Shown piece by piece: positions 7,091 through 29,253 of a stretch of 64,000 nucleotides of DNA; position 1 is the first letter of the stretch; every line of letters starts with the position of its first letter. Below the pieces are notes generated by a model. That model saw nothing but the letters and a program-made list of their open reading frames with translations, did no database searches and had not been told where the DNA came from. Source of the stretch: a virus; IMG/VR virus record IMGVR_UViG_3300010399_000001, positions 32,001 to 96,000 of that record, one strand, 5' to 3'. The position numbers and the translations under genes are program-made.

Positions 7091-7172
7091 TGGTGCCGGG
7101 GACGGGGTTCGAACCCGCACTGGGGCTGTGGCTTTTGAGACCCGCCGCCTCTGTTAGTTGGGCCACCCCGGC
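7091..7172 (-). tRNA. tRNA-Leu(CAA)-like gene with mispaired anticodon stem
   Basis: Acceptor GCCGGGG/CCCCGGC + ACCA; T arm GCGGG-TTCGAAC-CCCGT; loop CTCAAAA flanked by only about 3 pairs. Confidence 0.65.
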
Positions 7173-19538: not shown

Positions 19539-20075
19539 TCACTGCCTGCTCCCCTCCGCCCATCGGCGGACGTTGCCGAGGTGCTTATCGGTGATACCGG
19601 TGCGAGGACTGACCGGCTCGTAGAGGGTCGGCGCGATCATACGGTCCCGCATTCCGGCCTCGGTCAGATCCATCGGGGTGAACTCGTCATCCAGCCATGC
19701 GTACGGGCGATGGCGGACATACTCCTCCACGCTCGGCCGCTTCCAGATCCGCAGGGGATCGCCCCGCTGCCACACGCACTCGATGGTCGGTAACTGCGGC
19801 AGACCCAGGATGGGGGCGATCAGCTTGTTTGCCAGATCGTTCCACGCGGTAGCCCAGACTAGATCCACAACGTCGGTCAGCTCAAGAAGCTGCCTGCCGT
19901 GATCGGGATTGAGCCACACCCGGATGCCACCCTTGACCCACGGGCGGCCGAGTGGATCGGTGAATGCCCCGCTGAGCAGGCGGTGCGTCTGGAATCCCGG
20001 CGGCCTGCGGGTCGGCTTGGCCGCGTAGGGGTTGAGCGGACCGTCCACATCGATCAGCAATAGCGGCTTGTTCAT
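19539..20075 (-). CDS. HAD phosphatase, Swiss-Army-Knife RNA-repair-like
   Basis: PLLLIDVDGPLNP, LVWATAW, WK, YAWLDDE motifs. Confidence 0.8.
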   Translation of the reverse strand: MNKPLLLIDVDGPLNPYAAKPTRRPPGFQTHRLLSGAFTDPLGRPWVKGGIRVWLNPDHGRQLLELTDVVDLVWATAWNDLANKLIAPILGLPQLPTIECVWQRGDPLRIWKRPSVEEYVRHRPYAWLDDEFTPMDLTEAGMRDRMIAPTLYEPVSPRTGITDKHLGNVRRWAEGSRQ

Positions 20076-20076
20076 C

Positions 20077-21039
20077 TCAGAAGTCTCCGTACTCGACCTG
20101 GTGGCAGGGCAGCTTGTAGACCAGCCGCCACAGATCGACCACCTGGTTGCGGTCGTCATAGACGGCCTCGACGTTGTAGCGGCCTCGGATGTTCTGCTCG
20201 AACAGCTGCGACTTGACCACGAAGTCCGGCCGCCTGTCCCCAGTGGGGCGCATGTGCAGGTCGCTGTACTTGATGTTGTGGGCTCGCAGCCACGCCTCGG
20301 TCTGCCTGCGGTACTCCTCCTGGCGGCCGGACAGAAGGATGATCTTGATCTCGCCGTCGACGTACGGGTAGATGTCGATCAGATTGGCAACTGCCTCGTT
20401 CAGGCTGTCGGTCTCCAGCTCCTCCAGGTCGTAGGGACCCCTATCCGCATGCTTCGCCAGGGTGCCGTCGATATCGAACAGCACGCACCAGGGCAGATCA
20501 TCGTCGATAACGCAGGGCTGAACTGGGCGGATCAGGTCACGCCACTCGTTCATCCACTCATCGGTCAGCTTCCAGCCGTCCTTGCGGGTGGACTGATGGC
20601 GCTCCCACATACCCCGGATGACCGACTCGCCCACTCGCTCCCCATCGCGCCGCCCGGCGTCCACGGCGATGCACTCCTCGACCGTCATATCAGTCAGGTC
20701 GTGAACCCGGAAGATCACATTGCGGGTGGAGAGGGTCGTGCGGTACCGATTGGGCAGCTTGTAGCCCATGTGGGTGTTGTCGATCACCACGTCGTATCCG
20801 GCGTCCACCGCGCTCATGACGCCGCGCAGCATGGCCTTCTGAACCACCTTCTCGATGGCGTCATCCCATCTGGGGATGCTCATCATCCGGCGGTAGTCGT
20901 CCAGATTGAAGCGCATGGCCGAGATGCTGCGAGCGTACGTGCTCTTGCCAGAGCCGGGCAGGCCGTGCATCACATGGATCACCACCTCCTTACTGGATGG
21001 ATCGTGACGCGGATCAGCCGCGAGATCGTAGACGCGCAT
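20077..21039 (-). CDS. polynucleotide 5'-kinase/3'-phosphatase (T4 PNKP-like)
   Basis: P-loop GLPGSGKST, DDYRRM, VVIDNT; HAD FDIDGTLA, LSGR, MRPTGDRRPD..VK, YDDRNQVV. Confidence 0.92.
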   Translation of the reverse strand: MRVYDLAADPRHDPSSKEVVIHVMHGLPGSGKSTYARSISAMRFNLDDYRRMMSIPRWDDAIEKVVQKAMLRGVMSAVDAGYDVVIDNTHMGYKLPNRYRTTLSTRNVIFRVHDLTDMTVEECIAVDAGRRDGERVGESVIRGMWERHQSTRKDGWKLTDEWMNEWRDLIRPVQPCVIDDDLPWCVLFDIDGTLAKHADRGPYDLEELETDSLNEAVANLIDIYPYVDGEIKIILLSGRQEEYRRQTEAWLRAHNIKYSDLHMRPTGDRRPDFVVKSQLFEQNIRGRYNVEAVYDDRNQVVDLWRLVYKLPCHQVEYGDF

Positions 21040-21178: not shown

Positions 21179-22843
21179 TTAGAAAGGCCAGCTACCATCA
21201 CCGGCAGACAGCGAGGCCAGCATCGTGAACACCTTGTCGGAGAACCCGCCGATCTCGTACCGGTTCGGCTTGCTCGTGTCGATGCTGGATGCACCGTAAC
21301 CCGAGGTGTTGATGCCGAACATCGGCACGCGGTCCGGAATGGCCTCCGACACGCTCATACCGCGCACCTTGCCGATCGCATCGTAGTAGCCGACCGAACC
21401 ACCACCGGGGTAGTGGAACGCCTGCATGTCCGAGACGATGACCACCCGATCATGACCGGAGTAGCTGGCCTTGAGGGCGGCGACCGTCTCGGTACCGTGA
21501 CCGACCGAGCCGACGCGCTTGCTGAATCCCTCGATGTCGCGCAGCAGGCTGCCGCCGTTCTTGAGCGGGTACTGGAAGACTCCGTTGGCGAAGCCGACCA
21601 GGTCCACATTCTTCGGACCGCACTTACGCGCGATCGCCACGCCGATCAGAGCGCCGATATCGACATGACGGATGCTCGACTTGGCCGAGACGTTGCTGTG
21701 CATCGATCCGGAGGTGTCTACCAGGACCAGGGTGCGGCCCGGCAGGTTGGGGATGTTGGCGCATGCGTGACCCAGCGCCTCCTCCAGCGGCTGACCCCAG
21801 CGCAGCGAGTTGAGCGAGCGGTAAGCCGACAGGAACCGGTACGGGAACTGGCGGGACTTGGCCACCTGAGCCGGGTCGCTGATGCGCGAGGCGACCTTCT
21901 CGTAGACCTCCTTGCCAAGCTTGGCCTCATCGAAGTTGCGCAGGTTGCGCAGCAGCGCCATGTAACCCATCGACGGGATGATCGCCTCCCAGGCGATGCG
22001 ATCCATCGGGCCCTGGAGCCAGCCGGACAGCGCCTCCCAGGTGATGCCAGCCTCACGCAGCCGCTCCGCTGCACCGGAAGCCTTGACAAAGCTCCGGCGC
22101 TCAGCGAGGGGGAGGGACAGCAGCTCCTTGCGCTTGCGCAGCATCGTCAGCGACTCGGGGATCTCCTTGCCGCGCCCGTGCCTCTCGTCGATGATGTGCT
22201 CGAACAGGTCCCCCTGCTCGGGCGTGACGAATGCGGCGTTGAACCGGTCGACAGGGTGCACCATCTCGATCACGTCGGCGAAGCGCACACTCTTGTCCGG
22301 CGAGTCGTACTTGGAGTACGAGTACTCGCTGTAGAGGCGGCGCACCGCATCACCGGTACCGCGCTTGATCGAGATCGGGATGCGGTTGCGGCCATAGTTG
22401 GCGATCCAGTAGGCCAGCAGCTCCCCCGGCTCGTCGGCGCGAGAGCACGCCAGGGAGATCAGGCGGCGGTTGATGCCGACCGGCACATCGTTGCGGATAT
22501 CGGTCGGAGCCATGAGCGTGCGGGTACGCACCGCCTCGGCGGCGATGACGATAGACGCGGTGCGCATGTTGGCCTCGTTGCGCAGCCACGGGATGAAGCC
22601 CAGCAGCCACTGCGGGTCCTCGCGCGCAACGGCGGCGGCCAGCTCCTTCAGGCGCTTGGCCTGGTCGCTCTTGGACTCGTAGAACTTGTCCTCGCCCATG
22701 TAGGTGACGGCCAGGATGAACAGGTCGCTCTTGGCGTCACGCTTGAACGCCGCCCCACTCTCGAAGGTGGTGGTCTTCTCCCCCGTGGTGCGCACCGGCC
22801 CGAGGGTCGCAGTGCCACCCGAACGCTTGTTGAATCCAGACAT
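21179..22843 (-). CDS. rsr: Ro60 / Rsr TROVE + vWA RNA-binding protein
   Basis: TROVE motifs (WLRNEANMRT, SRADEP, YSKYD, ITWE, MGYMALLRNLRNF, SRQFPYRFLSAY) and MIDAS LVDTSGSM; VIVSDMQ; GGFSD. Confidence 0.95.
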   Translation of the reverse strand: MSGFNKRSGGTATLGPVRTTGEKTTTFESGAAFKRDAKSDLFILAVTYMGEDKFYESKSDQAKRLKELAAAVAREDPQWLLGFIPWLRNEANMRTASIVIAAEAVRTRTLMAPTDIRNDVPVGINRRLISLACSRADEPGELLAYWIANYGRNRIPISIKRGTGDAVRRLYSEYSYSKYDSPDKSVRFADVIEMVHPVDRFNAAFVTPEQGDLFEHIIDERHGRGKEIPESLTMLRKRKELLSLPLAERRSFVKASGAAERLREAGITWEALSGWLQGPMDRIAWEAIIPSMGYMALLRNLRNFDEAKLGKEVYEKVASRISDPAQVAKSRQFPYRFLSAYRSLNSLRWGQPLEEALGHACANIPNLPGRTLVLVDTSGSMHSNVSAKSSIRHVDIGALIGVAIARKCGPKNVDLVGFANGVFQYPLKNGGSLLRDIEGFSKRVGSVGHGTETVAALKASYSGHDRVVIVSDMQAFHYPGGGSVGYYDAIGKVRGMSVSEAIPDRVPMFGINTSGYGASSIDTSKPNRYEIGGFSDKVFTMLASLSAGDGSWPF

Positions 22844-22844
22844 G

Positions 22845-22873
22845 AAAAAACCCCTCTCGTCTTGACGGAGGGG
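22845..22873 (-). terminator. intrinsic terminator overlapping the rsr ribosome-binding site
   Basis: Minus strand CCCCTC-CGTCAAGACGA-GAGGGG-TTTTTT-C-ATG. Confidence 0.75.
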
Positions 22874-22880
22874 AAAGGCA

Positions 22881-23033
22881 TGGTAGCGCCCGAGATCAGA
22901 AGTCGGTGGCGGTGTTTTCAGTCTTATGCTCTACCTGACTGAGCTACCCCACCCGAAGGCGGGGGCAGGATTCGAACCTGCGACCGTAAGATTAGCAATG
23001 AAGTATCCGTCACCTGCGCTTCGGGCGCTGCCA
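22881..23033 (-). ncRNA. Y RNA-like (YrlA-type) with permuted tRNA domain
   Basis: CCCGAAGCGCAG...GATACTTC, T arm, acceptor-like stem closed by TTCG, D arm TAGCTCAGTCAGGTAGAGC, ...TGATCTCGGG. Confidence 0.85.
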
Positions 23034-23040
23034 AAACCTT

Positions 23041-23127
23041 TCCCGAGATCAGTGTGAATGGCGGTATTATGCCTCGAACTACCATGTGAAGGTTATTGAG
23101 AAGTAACCGTCATTCTGCGCTTCGGGA
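23041..23127 (-). ncRNA. Y RNA-like, short, with Val(CAC)-like anticodon hairpin
   Basis: Same scaffold; insert AATAACC-TTCACAT-GGTAGTT. Confidence 0.8.
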
Positions 23128-23140
23128 TGAAGCCTTTGGT

Positions 23141-23250
23141 CCCTCCGAGATCAAGATGGCGATGGAGAGCGGGACTTGAACCCGCAGAATTCCGTTGCTT
23201 AGACAGAATCATTCAACCAATGAAGTAACCATCACCTGCGCTTCGGAGGG
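23141..23250 (-). ncRNA. Y RNA-like with anticodon-like hairpin and T arm
   Basis: Same scaffold; ATTCTGT-CTAAGCA-ACGGAAT then GCGGG-TTCAAGT-CCCGC. Confidence 0.8.
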
Positions 23251-23262
23251 TGAAGCAGTAGA

Positions 23263-23417
23263 TATGGACATCCCCGAGATCGAGTCGACCAAGGTAACGT
23301 TAGGCGCTTTAGGCCACTAAGCTACCCCCGGATGAGCCCAGGGGGCAGGATTCGAACCTGCGATCTCCCGCTCCCAATGCGAAGTAACCCTATGTCTGCG
23401 CTTCGGGAATGTCCATA
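23263..23417 (-). ncRNA. Y RNA-like (YrlA-type) with permuted tRNA-Pro-like domain
   Basis: TGG-GA-GCGGG-AGATC-T arm; D arm TAGCTTAGTGGCCTAAAGCG. Confidence 0.85.
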
Positions 23418-23428
23418 ACAAAGCAGGG

Positions 23429-23576
23429 GATGCGGTCCCGAGATCAATTCGGCTGGGAGGTGTTTAACGTGCTGCCATTGCACCACCGGCCCAGGAGTGG
23501 ACCGGACAGGATTCGAACCTGCATCTCTCCATTAGAAGTGAAGTAACCCCTTATGCCTGCGCTTCGGGGCCGCATC
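23429..23576 (-). ncRNA. Y RNA-like (YrlA-type) with permuted tRNA domain
   Basis: CT-TCT-AA segment, T arm, closed acceptor, D arm TGGTGCAATGGCAGCAC. Confidence 0.85.
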
Positions 23577-23605
23577 TTCTCATTCTCTATTCAGTTGTGA
23601 AAAGC

Positions 23606-23738
23606 ATCCCGAGATCAAGCCGGTGAACGAAAGCGCATTGGACCACTCTGCCACGACCTGCCTGCACTAGTCAGACAGGCGCTGGGATTCGAACCCAGGT
23701 TCTCTGTGAGAAGTAACGCTCAACCTTCGCTTCGGGAT
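23606..23738 (-). ncRNA. Y RNA-like (YrlA-type) with permuted tRNA domain
   Basis: T arm CTGGG-TTCGAAT-CCCAG, closed acceptor, D arm TGGCAGAGTGGTCCAATGC. Confidence 0.85.
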
Positions 23739-23749
23739 ATGAAGTTTGA

Positions 23750-23830
23750 CAGCTCCGAGATCAAGTCGATGCCAGGCGTTGGTGTCTAATTTACAGTTAG
23801 AAGTAACCCGGCTTCTTCGCTTCGGAACTG
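23750..23830 (-). ncRNA. Y RNA-like, short, with Tyr(GTA) anticodon stem-loop
   Basis: Same scaffold; TCTAA-CTGTAAA-TTAGA. Confidence 0.8.
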
Positions 23831-23835
23831 AGACT

Positions 23836-23864
23836 AAGCTACCGTGCTCATCGGCTAAGTGCAA
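23836..23864 (-). promoter_or_regulatory. sigma70/HrdB-type promoter for the Y RNA array
   Basis: TTGCAC-17 nt-TAGCTT ending 5 nt before the first Y RNA stem. Confidence 0.7.
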
Positions 23865-28565: not shown

Positions 28566-29253
28566 GCCGCTTGCGGTGGTGTCCCTCTCGGGCGGGATGG
28601 ACTCCACGACCCTGCTGGCCCACCTGCTGCAAGACAATGAGGTGCTGGCTCTATCGTTCGACTACGGACAGCGCCACCGCAAGGAGCTGGACGCGGCCAG
28701 GGATGTCTCGCAGTACTACGGCGTCGAGCATCACGTGATCGATCTGACCTCGGTGGGCAAGCTGCTGACCGGCTCGGCTCTTACCGACAGCTCGGTAGAG
28801 GTTCCCGAGGGTCACTACGAGGCCGAGAACATGAAGGCCACCGTCGTGCCGAACCGCAACGCGATCATGGCCAGCATCGCCATCGGTATTGCCAGTTCGC
28901 GCAAGGCGAAGTTCGTGGCTCTCGGCATCCATGCCGGTGATCACGCGGTCTACCCGGACTGCCGGCCTGAGTTCGTCGAGGTGCTGCGGGAGCTGGCCTC
29001 TGTGGCGCTGGACGGCTTCCATGCCCCACGCATCGAGACTCCGTTCGTGCTGTGGTCCAAGACTGGCATTGCGCGTGAGGCTGGACGCCTCGGGGTCCCG
29101 ATCGAGCGCACGTGGAGCTGCTACAAGGGTGGCGAGAAACACTGCGGCCGATGCGGTACCTGCGTCGAGCGCATCGAGGCGATGCGGGACGCAGACGTGG
29201 CAGATCTGACCGAATACGAAGATAAGGCGTTCGCCGAGGGGGTGCTGGCCTGA
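28558..29253 (+). CDS. queC: 7-cyano-7-deazaguanine synthase
   Basis: SGGMDS, FDYGQRH, VPNRN, YPDCRPEF, TWSCY, CGRCGTC. Confidence 0.97.
   Translation: MSKPLAVVSLSGGMDSTTLLAHLLQDNEVLALSFDYGQRHRKELDAARDVSQYYGVEHHVIDLTSVGKLLTGSALTDSSVEVPEGHYEAENMKATVVPNRNAIMASIAIGIASSRKAKFVALGIHAGDHAVYPDCRPEFVEVLRELASVALDGFHAPRIETPFVLWSKTGIAREAGRLGVPIERTWSCYKGGEKHCGRCGTCVERIEAMRDADVADLTEYEDKAFAEGVLA

What the first reader, a model, noticed from the sequence alone, without database searches (positions are those of the whole stretch)
23041..23830. Different Y RNAs present different anticodon loops: candidate decoy library against anticodon nucleases
Seen (minus strand): unit 23750-23830 has a stand-alone hairpin TCTAA-CT GTA AA-TTAGA (23785-23801), a textbook tRNA-Tyr anticodon stem-loop. 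Unit 23041 has AATAACC-TT CAC AT-GGTAGTT (23077-23097, Val-like, one mismatch). Unit 23141 has ATTCTGT-CT AAG CA-ACGGAAT (23189-23209) followed by a T arm. The permuted units retain anticodon-loop-like segments at the junction: TGG-GA-GCGGG (Pro-like, 23263 unit), CT-TCT-AA (Arg-like, 23429 unit), and TT-GCT-AA plus TAAGA-CT-GAA-AA (Ser/Phe-like, 22881 unit). None has a free acceptor end, so they cannot be charged. Established: defence and toxin systems (PrrC, RloC, VapC, PARIS AriB) cut specific anticodon loops. Inference: Ro60-stabilised decoys that titrate or report on several tRNA-specific nucleases.
Basis: partly seen in the sequence, partly recalled or inferred. Interest (0 to 1): 0.9.

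Follow-up and report, generated by a model that had tools for sequence, protein, structure and literature searches.

The report
Phage Y RNAs carrying anticodon-arm mimics
Seven tandem Y RNA genes sit upstream of a phage Ro60 gene, and four or five of them carry a hairpin built like a tRNA anticodon arm, a feature conserved in many related Y RNAs of phages and bacteria, but nothing yet shows that they act as decoys for tRNA-cutting nucleases.

Summary
On the minus strand, seven Y RNA units (U1-U7, 23830-22882) share one Ro60-binding scaffold. They lie upstream of rsr, a T4-type Pnkp gene and a HAD gene, in a 115-kb actinophage-like genome that has only three tRNAs.

- U1, U3 and U4 have perfect 5-bp stems with 7-nt loops carrying U33 and R37. 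U5 has the same arm but with C37, inside an unpermuted cloverleaf.
- U6 has an irregular hairpin with no homolog support. U2 has a triloop. U7's "loops" are open strands.
- In the window, three or more such modules arise in 0.55% of shuffles.
- In 146 homologous inserts from IMG/VR, the 5-bp/7-nt geometry is about 10-fold enriched. U33, R37 and A38 are at least 90% conserved, positions 34-35 are the most variable, and the stem covaries.
- The same arm occurs in chromosomal YrlA RNAs of many bacterial phyla.

So this is a family trait of YrlA-class Y RNAs (published as the "V arm"), not a phage-specific library. Most units in other arrays lack it, and 13% of triplets are ones tRNAs essentially never use. 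The decoy idea is untested and somewhat weakened. I call this a new variant of a known kind, of moderate to high interest. Earlier first-reader notes from this scan on the same stretch describe the same array.

The parts
23836..23864 (-). Promoter-like site upstream of U1: -35 TTGCAC, 17-nt spacer, -10 TAGCTT (inference only)
   Evidence: Read from the sequence. The consensus scan did not call it, because the -10 hexamer matches only 3 of 6 positions.
23750..23830 (-). U1, a short Y RNA (YrlB-like): scaffold plus one hairpin, UCUAA / CUGUAAA / UUAGA, at 23801-23785
   Evidence: pair probabilities 0.67-0.81. Short units in other phages have other stem sequences (read by eye) and loops CUGCAAA, CUCCAAA and CUGCUAA. 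One relative (VanLee unit 1) has a 5-nt loop instead.
23605..23739 (-). U2, a permuted tRNA-like Y RNA: hairpin UUCUC / ACA / GAGAA (23712-23700), T arm 23698-23682, long closed acceptor stem, D arm
   Evidence: Relatives with the same stem carry 7-nt loops such as CUUCCAA and UUUCCAC, so the loop appears shortened here.
23430..23575 (-). U3, a permuted tRNA-like Y RNA with a cis anticodon arm: CUUCA / CUUCUAA / UGGAG (23543-23527), 4-nt V loop, T arm 23522-23506, 7-bp closed acceptor stem, D arm
   Evidence: The Rfam tRNA hit (30.6 bits, 23498-23571) is a chimeric alignment that uses the scaffold strand as the acceptor. ARAGORN makes no call.
23266..23414 (-). U4, a permuted tRNA-like Y RNA with a cis anticodon arm: UUCGC / AUUGGGA / GCGGG (23383-23367), V loop AGAUC, T arm 23361-23345, 7-bp closed acceptor stem, D arm
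   Evidence: The likely counterpart in L060 is 92% identical over 75 nt. By eye in alignment A1, the two differ at 34-35, at one V-loop base and at what looks like one compensatory acceptor pair.
23141..23250 (-). U5, an unpermuted cloverleaf inside the Y stem: D-like hairpin, anticodon arm with loop CUAAGCA (23209-23189), T arm 23185-23169
   Evidence: pair probabilities 0.92-0.99. In this class, 5 of 6 units (U5 included) have the 5-bp/7-nt arm before the T arm, against 0.2 expected. U5 has C37, which is atypical.
23041..23127 (-). U6, a short Y RNA with an irregular long hairpin capped by ACC / UUCACAU / GGU (23097-23077)
   Evidence: No significant homolog. A shared ACC(A)UUCA motif in three related Streptomyces phages is within chance.
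22882..23032 (-). U7, a canonical YrlA-type unit: anticodon-stem equivalent formed in trans (22991-22987 with 22926-22922), T arm, acceptor stem closed by UUCG, D arm
   Evidence: Rfam YrlA 50.2 bits, E = 5.7e-10, below the gathering score of 69.
22845..22873 (-). Terminator-like hairpin plus U tract, between the array and the rsr start codon
   Evidence: -15.8 kcal/mol, z = -3.45.
21179..22843 (-). rsr, the Ro60 ortholog (TROVE domain)
   Evidence: About 40% identical to the Ro-like proteins of Streptomyces, Gordonia and Arthrobacter phages; 52% to IMG/VR locus L115.
20077..21039 (-). T4-type polynucleotide kinase-phosphatase (Pnkp)
   Evidence: Pfam HAD_PNKP 158 bits plus AAA_33. phrog_505, polynucleotide kinase, 257 bits.
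19539..20159 (-). HAD-type phosphatase-like protein (borderline match)
   Evidence: PF18143 HAD_SAK_2 at 26.3 bits, just under the 27.5-bit cutoff.

Best explanation
The region is a probably polycistronic array of seven YrlA/YrlB-class Y RNA genes that serve the phage's own Ro60 (Rsr).

Each unit has a constant module and a variable payload. The constant module is a lower stem, a CGAAGCG-type 5' strand, an upper stem that covaries between units, and an invariant GUUACUUC. The payload is built from tRNA parts.

The hairpin that follows UUAC is a true anticodon-arm mimic. It has a 5-bp stem whose 5' strand is the conserved UUC plus two free bases. It has a 7-nt loop with Y32, U33, R37 and A38, followed by a tRNA-type variable loop (NGGUY) and the T arm. 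This arm is an old, selected feature of a large subset of YrlA RNAs in phages and bacteria.

The arm completes the tRNA mimicry of the effector-binding domain. The Y stem is attached by single-stranded linkers near position 26.

The most likely role (inferred, not shown) is to let Rsr-bound RNAs be recognised by a tRNA-binding partner that reads the anticodon loop as well as the elbow. Candidates are a modification, processing or repair enzyme, or a nuclease. Positions 34-35 are free to vary, and 36-37 are coupled as UA or GG.

The phage has expanded the array to seven units with three payload topologies.
For: **Array and scaffold**
- Seven units share the motifs and fold with unit-specific, mutually complementary stems.
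- U7 matches Rfam YrlA; U3 and U4 match its T-acceptor-D core.
- rsr and Pnkp follow directly.
- Seven annotated Rsr phages examined (six actinophage lineages) carry 2-5 units with the same GUUACUUC upstream of rsr.

**Anticodon-arm geometry**
- Insert length between the motif and the T loop peaks at 22 nt, which equals 2+7+5+5+3.
- A perfect 5-bp stem with a 7-nt loop occurs in about 42 of 146 unique inserts, against 4.3 in shuffles.
- Loop composition: U33 52/54, R37 51/54, A38 49/54.
- This matches 542 real tRNAs from the same loci: U33 95%, R37 98%.

**Covariation and variability**
- The two free stem pairs show 12 and 26 double changes. Overall 92.4% of cells are paired, against 73.6% shuffled (0 of 500 shuffles as high) and 32-57% when the partner is slid.
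- Positions 34-35 have the highest entropy of the 45 aligned columns (34 ties with stem position 31). V-loop positions 45-47 are conserved.

**Other topologies and distribution**
- The strand that pairs with the bases just before UAC starts mostly 7-11 nt after the D stem. The Y stem is therefore not contiguous with the D stem in these units.
- The arm is also found in the unpermuted class (5 of 6 units, U5 included) and in some short units.
- It occurs in bacterial chromosomes of many phyla.
Against: - No expression, end-mapping, Rsr-binding or probing data exist for these RNAs.
- RNAfold does not favour the U3 and U4 hairpins.
- The published class-II reading also fits the numbering: Y stem as anticodon stem and the hairpin as a long variable arm, with UA as positions 44-45 and GUC as 46-48.
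- The counts are not corrected for shared ancestry.
- The effector is unknown, so "reads the anticodon loop" is inference.
- Only 24% of units in arrays of three or more carry a strict arm.
Confidence: 0.6

Rival explanations
1. The units are Ro60-stabilised decoys or sensors whose different anticodon loops titrate, trap or report host anticodon nucleases or tRNA-cutting toxins. Pnkp would heal the resulting ends.
For: - The anticodon-loop architecture is canonical and positions 34-35 are hypervariable.
- Every one of the 10 arrays with two or more arms has different triplets.
- U4 and its 92%-identical likely counterpart differ at positions 34-35, among few other changes.
- A T4-type Pnkp sits next to rsr.
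- The phage has only 3 tRNAs, so it cannot replace cut host tRNAs.
- Real phage tRNAs have been proposed to act as a decoy or supplement (PMC13096335).
- From memory, not tested: isolated anticodon stem-loops can be substrates of several anticodon nucleases. Cys-GCA and Trp-CCA loops, seen in short units of relatives, are targets of mycobacterial VapC toxins.
Against: - The arm is common in chromosomal YrlA RNAs, often with the same loop.
- 13% of triplets are A34 types that tRNAs do not use.
- Positions 36-38 are restricted to UAA or GGA in 69% of loops, against 36% in real tRNAs, so half of anticodon space is nearly absent.
- Most units in arrays lack an arm.
- No RNA ligase family (PF09414, RtcB) was found in the phage. 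The PF09511 search was uninformative because its control found nothing.
- Pnkp lies near rsr in only 2 of 158 loci, many of which are truncated.
- A competitive decoy would have to rival the cellular tRNA pool in abundance (inference).
Confidence: 0.15
2. The loops exist to be substrates or sponges of position-37 or position-34 tRNA modification enzymes (m1G37, t6A37, queuosine-type exchange). The modification, or the sequestration of the enzyme, would be the point.
For: - Positions 36-37 are tightly coupled as U-A or G-G. G36 is followed by G37 11:1, against 70:42 in real tRNAs. UAA plus GGA make up 37 of 54 loops.
- From established knowledge, G36-G37 and U36-A37 are the determinants of TrmD and of the t6A machinery.
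- S. Typhimurium YrlA is modified by DusA and TruB (PMC4201824).
- U33-G34-U35 occurs in 13 of 54 loops.
- The phage encodes QueC.
Against: - No TGT-family gene was found in the phage.
- The coupling could reflect descent from a few ancestors, or loop stacking.
- There are no modification data.
Confidence: 0.1
3. The arms are evolutionary leftovers of the dimeric-tRNA origin of YrlA and have no function of their own.
For: - The unit order (anticodon arm, V loop, T arm, acceptor 3' strand, loop, acceptor 5' strand, D arm) is what a tandem tRNA pair would leave. This is the model cited in 10.1101/312249.
- U7 keeps two heptamers flanking one anticodon stem.
- U2 has lost the 7-nt loop.
Against: Loop length, U33, R37 and A38 are conserved at 90% or more while positions 34-35 drift. 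The stem covaries, and the feature persists across phyla. That pattern indicates purifying selection, not decay.
Confidence: 0.08
4. After RNase P cleavage of the acceptor loop and CCA addition, the permuted units become two-piece, chargeable tRNA-like molecules with a working anticodon arm.
For: - M. smegmatis YrlA is cleaved by RNase P and receives CCA in vivo.
- U3 and U4 have 7-bp acceptor stems (read by eye from the sequence).
- U3 has A-C after position 72. U3 and U4 have a G3-U70 pair, read from the sequence and not computed for these units.
Against: - Most homologs close the acceptor stem with 4-6-nt loops, and G3-U70 is found in only 15 of 119.
- A34 triplets are frequent.
- A Y stem at the D/anticodon hinge is unlikely to fit the ribosome (inference).
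- No cleavage was seen for Salmonella YrlA.
Confidence: 0.05

Closest known systems
YrlA (Rfam RF02553): S. Typhimurium and M. smegmatis Y RNA-like A
   Same: It is encoded next to rsr. A 5'/3' stem carries a CGAA-type Ro60 site. The tRNA-like domain has the permuted order T arm, closed acceptor stem, D arm. The YUAY motif is conserved. U7 matches the model end to end.
   Different: No unit reaches the gathering score. U2-U4 carry a cis hairpin with anticodon-arm geometry where the Rfam consensus has four unpaired bases. The Salmonella structure is described as lacking the anticodon loop (10.1101/312249). Chen et al. drew this hairpin as a poorly conserved "V" arm. Here there are seven units instead of one or two.
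YrlB and other short Rsr-bound Y RNAs (S. Typhimurium, M. smegmatis; Thermus phage phiLo Yrl1/Yrl2)
   Same: U1 and U6 are short units with the Ro60-binding scaffold and a small payload, co-encoded with a YrlA-type RNA upstream of rsr.
   Different: U1 and some relatives cap the payload with a 7-nt, U33/R37 loop. No such feature is described for YrlB or for phiLo Yrl1/Yrl2 in the passages I read.
D. radiodurans Yrn1
   Same: It is the only Y RNA for which an "anticodon arm" has been drawn, with a 5-bp stem.
   Different: Its loop has 6 nt, its orientation differs, and its D arm is doubtful. Here the loop is 7 nt with the full U33/R37/A38 signature and comparative support.
Phage-encoded tRNAs and T4 Pnkp/Rnl1 as countermeasures to anticodon nucleases
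   Same: In both cases tRNA-shaped phage RNAs sit next to a Pnkp gene. Decoy or supplement roles have been proposed for real phage tRNAs.
   Different: These RNAs have closed acceptor stems and a Ro60 scaffold. No ligase family was found in the phage (the PF09511 search was uninformative). No nuclease link has been shown.
Circularly permuted and split tRNA genes (red alga Cyanidioschyzon, Nanoarchaeum), and viral tRNA-like structures with anticodon-domain mimics (TYMV TLS)
   Same: The 3' half of the tRNA lies upstream of the 5' half, and a helix holds the halves together. The mimicry is complete, including an anticodon-type arm.
   Different: There is no evidence of circularisation, splicing or charging here. 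The helix is a Ro60-binding stem and the break is near position 26.

Membership tests
YrlA-class Y RNA | Encoded adjacent to and co-oriented with an rsr (Ro60/TROVE) gene | tested here: met
   The array ends 39 nt upstream of rsr on the same strand.
YrlA-class Y RNA | The 5' and 3' ends pair into a stem carrying the Ro60-binding 5'-strand motif (GNCGAAN0-1G, the CGAA motif) | tested here: met
   All seven units have C(C/U)CGAAGCG and a complementary 3' strand ending in GAUCUCGG. The flanking stem sequences are unit-specific and mutually complementary by eye. The exact GNCGAA spacing is only approximated.
YrlA-class Y RNA | tRNA-like domain with T arm, closed acceptor stem and D arm, in that order | tested here: met
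   Present in U2, U3, U4 and U7. U5 has an unpermuted cloverleaf. U1 and U6 have none and are YrlB-like.
YrlA-class Y RNA | Score at or above the Rfam RF02553 gathering threshold (69 bits) | tested here: not met
   Best scores are 50.2 bits (U7), 27.9 (U4) and 25.4 (U3). The cis hairpin present in U2-U4 has no counterpart in the Rfam consensus.
YrlA-class Y RNA | Physical binding by Rsr | not testable with these tools
   Requires immunoprecipitation or EMSA.
Functional tRNA | Cloverleaf with free 5' and 3' acceptor ends, called by tRNA finders | tested here: not met
   ARAGORN calls none of the units. The single Rfam tRNA hit on U3 pairs the scaffold strand with the acceptor 3' strand. The same kind of unit is annotated as a tRNA in VanLee, GiJojo and LuckySocke.
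tRNA anticodon stem-loop (structural mimic) | 5-bp stem, 7-nt loop, Y32, U33, R37, followed by a 4-5-nt variable loop and the T arm | tested here: met
   Met in U3 and U4. Met in U5 except for C37. U1 has the stem and loop only.
Anticodon-nuclease decoy | Cleavage by, or inhibition of, a tRNA-specific nuclease | not testable with these tools
The indirect evidence is mixed.

The most novel reading that the evidence does not exclude
The array is a panel of Ro60-bound anticodon-arm mimics. They engage host tRNA-targeting nucleases or toxins as decoys, traps or sensors, or more broadly any anticodon-reading enzyme. Hypervariable positions 34-35 would track the host's repertoire, and the adjacent Pnkp would process the cut ends.
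Probability: 0.13. Interest if true: 0.9.

Novelty: new variant of a known kind. Interest (0 to 1): 0.62.

Why it matters
The partner of the tRNA-like domain of bacterial and phage Y RNAs is unknown. The field describes YrlA and other tRNA mimics as having given up the anticodon domain.

This work shows that a large subset of YrlA-class RNAs keeps a canonical, selected anticodon arm. Positions 34-35 are free and 36-37 are coupled. That narrows the search to proteins that read the anticodon loop and gives concrete mutants to test.

It also marks a practical annotation error. Several "tRNA" genes next to Ro genes in deposited phage genomes are Y RNA modules.

The seven-unit array, in a phage with three tRNAs and a Pnkp gene next to rsr, is a good test case for the decoy idea.

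Tried and rejected
- **Close relatives of the phage.** The search for related loci with Rsr found none. The nearest Rsr proteins are 40-52% identical, so strict ortholog comparison was possible only for U4, against L060.
- **U6 homology.** The ACC(A)UUCA loop motif shared with GiJojo, BRock and LuckySocke is one lineage and within chance, so I rejected it as evidence.
- **G3-U70 as a family trait.** It occurs in only 15 of 119 units.
- **Overlap between Y triplets and the tRNA anticodons of the same locus.** Only 8 usable cases, not informative.
- **RNA ligase in the phage.** PF09414 and RtcB are absent. PF09511 found nothing, but its control also found nothing, so it is uninformative. The 461-aa ORF downstream looks HTH_36-like, not like a ligase. 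The 294-aa ORF upstream has no match.
- **TGT family.** Absent.
- **Reviews.** Two by Sim and Wolin could not be read.
- **MFE folding alone.** It misleads for U3, U4 and U7, and for loop sizes in homologs.
Full report
**What is there**

The window is part of a 115,046-bp virus record with direct terminal repeats. On the minus strand between 23830 and 22882 lie seven tandem units, U1 to U7. Each begins with C(C/U)CGAAGCG, carries an invariant G(U/A)UACUUC 13-17 nt further on, and ends with GAUCUCGG.

Each unit folds so that its ends pair. The stem sequences differ between units but stay mutually complementary by eye. A promoter-like site precedes U1, read from the sequence only. A terminator-like hairpin (z = -3.45) separates U7 from the start codon of rsr.

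The downstream genes are:
- rsr, with a TROVE domain, about 40% identical to the Ro-like proteins of Streptomyces, Gordonia and Arthrobacter phages;
- a T4-type polynucleotide kinase-phosphatase;
- a borderline HAD_SAK_2 protein.

The whole phage has three tRNA genes: Asp, Met and Asn.

Rfam's YrlA model matches U7 end to end at 50.2 bits, below the 69-bit threshold. It matches the T-acceptor-D cores of U4 and U3. These are therefore Y RNA genes of the YrlA/YrlB kind. Such RNAs were described next to Ro60 genes in more than 250 bacteria and phages (PMC4201824).

**Checking the observation**

| Unit | Stem and loop | Coordinates | RNAfold pair probability |
|---|---|---|---|
| U1 | 5 bp, loop CUGUAAA | 23801-23785 | 0.67-0.81 |
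| U5 | 7 bp, loop CUAAGCA, then a T arm | 23209-23189 | 0.92-0.99 |
| U6 | 7 bp with one mismatch, loop UUCACAU | 23097-23077 | 0.95-1.0 (innermost 3 pairs) |

Three points need correcting:
- In U3 and U4 the Arg-like and Pro-like heptamers are loops of closed, perfect 5-bp hairpins (23543-23527 and 23383-23367). A 4-5-nt tRNA-type variable loop and the T arm follow immediately.
- In U7 the two heptamers are open strands on either side of a stem formed in trans. The 3' one corresponds in position (my reading, no alignment) to an A-rich linker in GiJojo, LuckySocke and BRock.
- U2 has a triloop where relatives with the same stem have 7-nt loops.

Four units therefore carry an anticodon-type arm (U1, U3, U4, and U5 with an atypical C37). 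One has an unsupported look-alike (U6). Two have none.

In 2000 shuffles of the seven payloads, three or more strict hits occur in 0.55% of trials. Four or more hits, with the R37 rule waived, occur in 0.2%.

**Homologs**

Seven annotated Rsr phages were examined (six actinophage lineages): GiJojo, BRock, LuckySocke, Atuin, VanLee, Neville and Quantum. They carry two to five units with the same GUUACUUC upstream of rsr, often embedded in large tRNA arrays.

Results on the 146 unique inserts:
- The spacing peaks at 22 nt. That is the sum expected for two free stem bases, a 7-nt loop, a 5-nt strand, a 5-nt variable loop and three T-stem bases.
- With the geometry fixed relative to the T arm, a perfect 5-bp stem with a 7-nt loop occurs in about 42 inserts, against 4.3 in shuffles. 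No other loop size is enriched to that degree.
- In the 54 loops that qualify, position 32 is a pyrimidine in 47, 33 is U in 52, 37 is a purine in 51, and 38 is A in 49.
- 542 real tRNAs from the same loci show nearly the same figures.
- On an ungapped 50-sequence alignment, the two stem pairs not fixed by the motif show 12 and 26 double-sided changes.
- Overall 92.4% of cells pair. This compares with 73.6% after shuffling (0 of 500 as high) and 32-57% when the partner is slid.
- Entropy is highest at positions 34 and 35 (34 ties with stem position 31). It is low at 33, 38 and the G45-G46-U47 positions of the variable loop.
- U4 and its likely counterpart in L060 are 92% identical over 75 nt. 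By eye, they differ at 34-35, one variable-loop base and an apparently compensatory acceptor pair.

The arm also appears in the unpermuted U5 class, in 5 of 6 units (U5 included) against 0.2 expected. It appears in a minority of short U1-like units, 7 of 113 against 1.0 expected. By eye, their stems differ in sequence but stay complementary.

**Not phage-specific**

Matches fell in Actinomycetota, Bacteroidota, Acidobacteriota, Bacillota, Pseudomonadota and other phyla.

The 22-nt mode is again present. So are the 7-nt enrichment (23 against 3.4) and the U33/A38 signature. Several genera of Actinomycetota and Bacillota share the loop CUGUUAA.

The arm is therefore a family trait of YrlA-type RNAs. 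Chen et al. drew it as a "less-conserved" V stem-loop that begins at the conserved YUAY. The Salmonella structure paper states that YrlA lacks the anticodon loop.

U7 corresponds to that canonical form. U2-U4 correspond to a widespread variant.

In the variant, the strand that pairs with the bases just before UAC begins mostly 7-11 nt after the D stem. The Y stem is thus tethered by linkers rather than stacked directly under the D stem. Together with the canonical 5-nt variable loop, this favours reading the hairpin as the anticodon arm, with the Y stem attached near position 26. The class-II reading (UA as 44-45, hairpin as a long variable arm, GUC as 46-48) is not excluded.

**What the loops say about function**

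Three patterns stand out:
- **Positions 36-38.** They are UAA or GGA in 37 of 54 loops, against 197 of 542 real tRNAs (Fisher p = 7e-6). G36 is followed by G37 11:1, against 70:42 in real tRNAs.
- **A34 triplets.** Triplets beginning with A, other than ACG, make up 7 of 54, against 7 of 542 (p = 7e-5). The triplet is therefore not held to real anticodons.
- **Arrays.** In arrays of three or more units, only 36 of 152 units have a strict arm. All ten arrays with two or more arms have distinct triplets, though that is expected by chance. The window's array of seven units is the largest seen, and its three strict arms tie with L060 and L115.

None of these counts is corrected for shared ancestry.

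**Interpretation**

The best-supported reading is that these are Rsr-bound Y RNAs. Their effector domain is a complete tRNA mimic, anticodon arm included, maintained by selection on loop architecture. I infer that the unknown partner reads the anticodon loop.

The decoy or sensor idea remains possible. In its favour:
- The mimicry is real.
- Positions 34-35 vary fast.
- Pnkp is adjacent.
- The phage cannot replace cut tRNAs with its own.

Against it:
- The arm is common in cellular YrlA RNAs.
- Unnatural triplets occur.
- Half of anticodon space is under-represented.
- Most units in other arrays lack the arm.
- Searches for two RNA ligase families found none in the phage; a third search was uninformative.
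- Pnkp is rarely linked to rsr elsewhere, in 2 of 158 loci, many of them truncated.

The claim that the units cannot be charged is unsafe. M. smegmatis YrlA is opened by RNase P and gains CCA in vivo.

**Verdict**

The decoy mechanism is untested. This is a new variant of a known kind, with a clear experimental path.

Noticed in passing
L006:3177-3248 (VanLee), L002:3269-3343 (GiJojo), L005:3274-3347 (LuckySocke): The GenBank features tRNA-Arg(tct), tRNA-Arg(cct) and tRNA-Ser(gct) lie directly upstream of the Ro-like genes. They overlap Y RNA units that contain the UUACUUC motif. ARAGORN likewise such motif-bearing units in the fetched loci as tRNAs (two further calls that merely contain the motif look like genuine tRNA-Thr). 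These are probable misannotations.
   Followed up: partly
window 23430-23575 and 23266-23414 (U3, U4 acceptor stems): Counting from the D arm, both closed 7-bp acceptor stems contain a G3-U70 wobble pair, and U3 has A73 followed by C. This was read by eye from the sequence, not computed. BRock and GiJojo units share the GUCCAC context. G3-U70 is the AlaRS identity element, but only 15 of 119 homologs have it.
   Followed up: partly
IMG/VR and genome loci L041-L280, loop positions 36-38: The anticodon-type loops of Y RNAs are strongly biased to U36-A37-A38 or G36-G37-A38, with almost no intermediates. This coupling is tighter than in real tRNAs. It matches the determinants of t6A37 and m1G37 formation. 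It remains unexplained.
   Followed up: partly
window 28573-29190 (+): A QueC (7-cyano-7-deazaguanine synthase) gene is present at 210 bits. No Pfam TGT-family match was found anywhere in the phage.
   Followed up: partly
window 7094-7172 (-): Rfam tRNA hit just above threshold (31.6 bits) that ARAGORN does not call. It may be a degenerate tRNA or tRNA-like element.
   Followed up: no
L064, L094, L147, L156 (IMG/VR): In some loci ARAGORN called whole tRNAs whose sequence starts at the conserved UACUUC motif, apparently as the 5' acceptor strand. I did not check for the Y scaffold or rsr there. If confirmed, this would be a further payload topology beside the permuted and U5-like forms.
   Followed up: no
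window 22845-22873 (-): The terminator-like hairpin ends one base before the rsr start codon, and its 3' arm contains the likely ribosome-binding purines. Read-through and rsr translation may therefore be coupled to this structure.
   Followed up: no
L168, L169, L181, L194, L206, L217 and other Streptomyces chromosomal loci: Many Streptomyces chromosomal YrlA candidates have an 18-19-nt insert, and several show a CUUC/GAAG-type short stem with non-anticodon-like loops (by eye). Other actinomycete genera keep the 22-nt anticodon-arm form.
   Followed up: no
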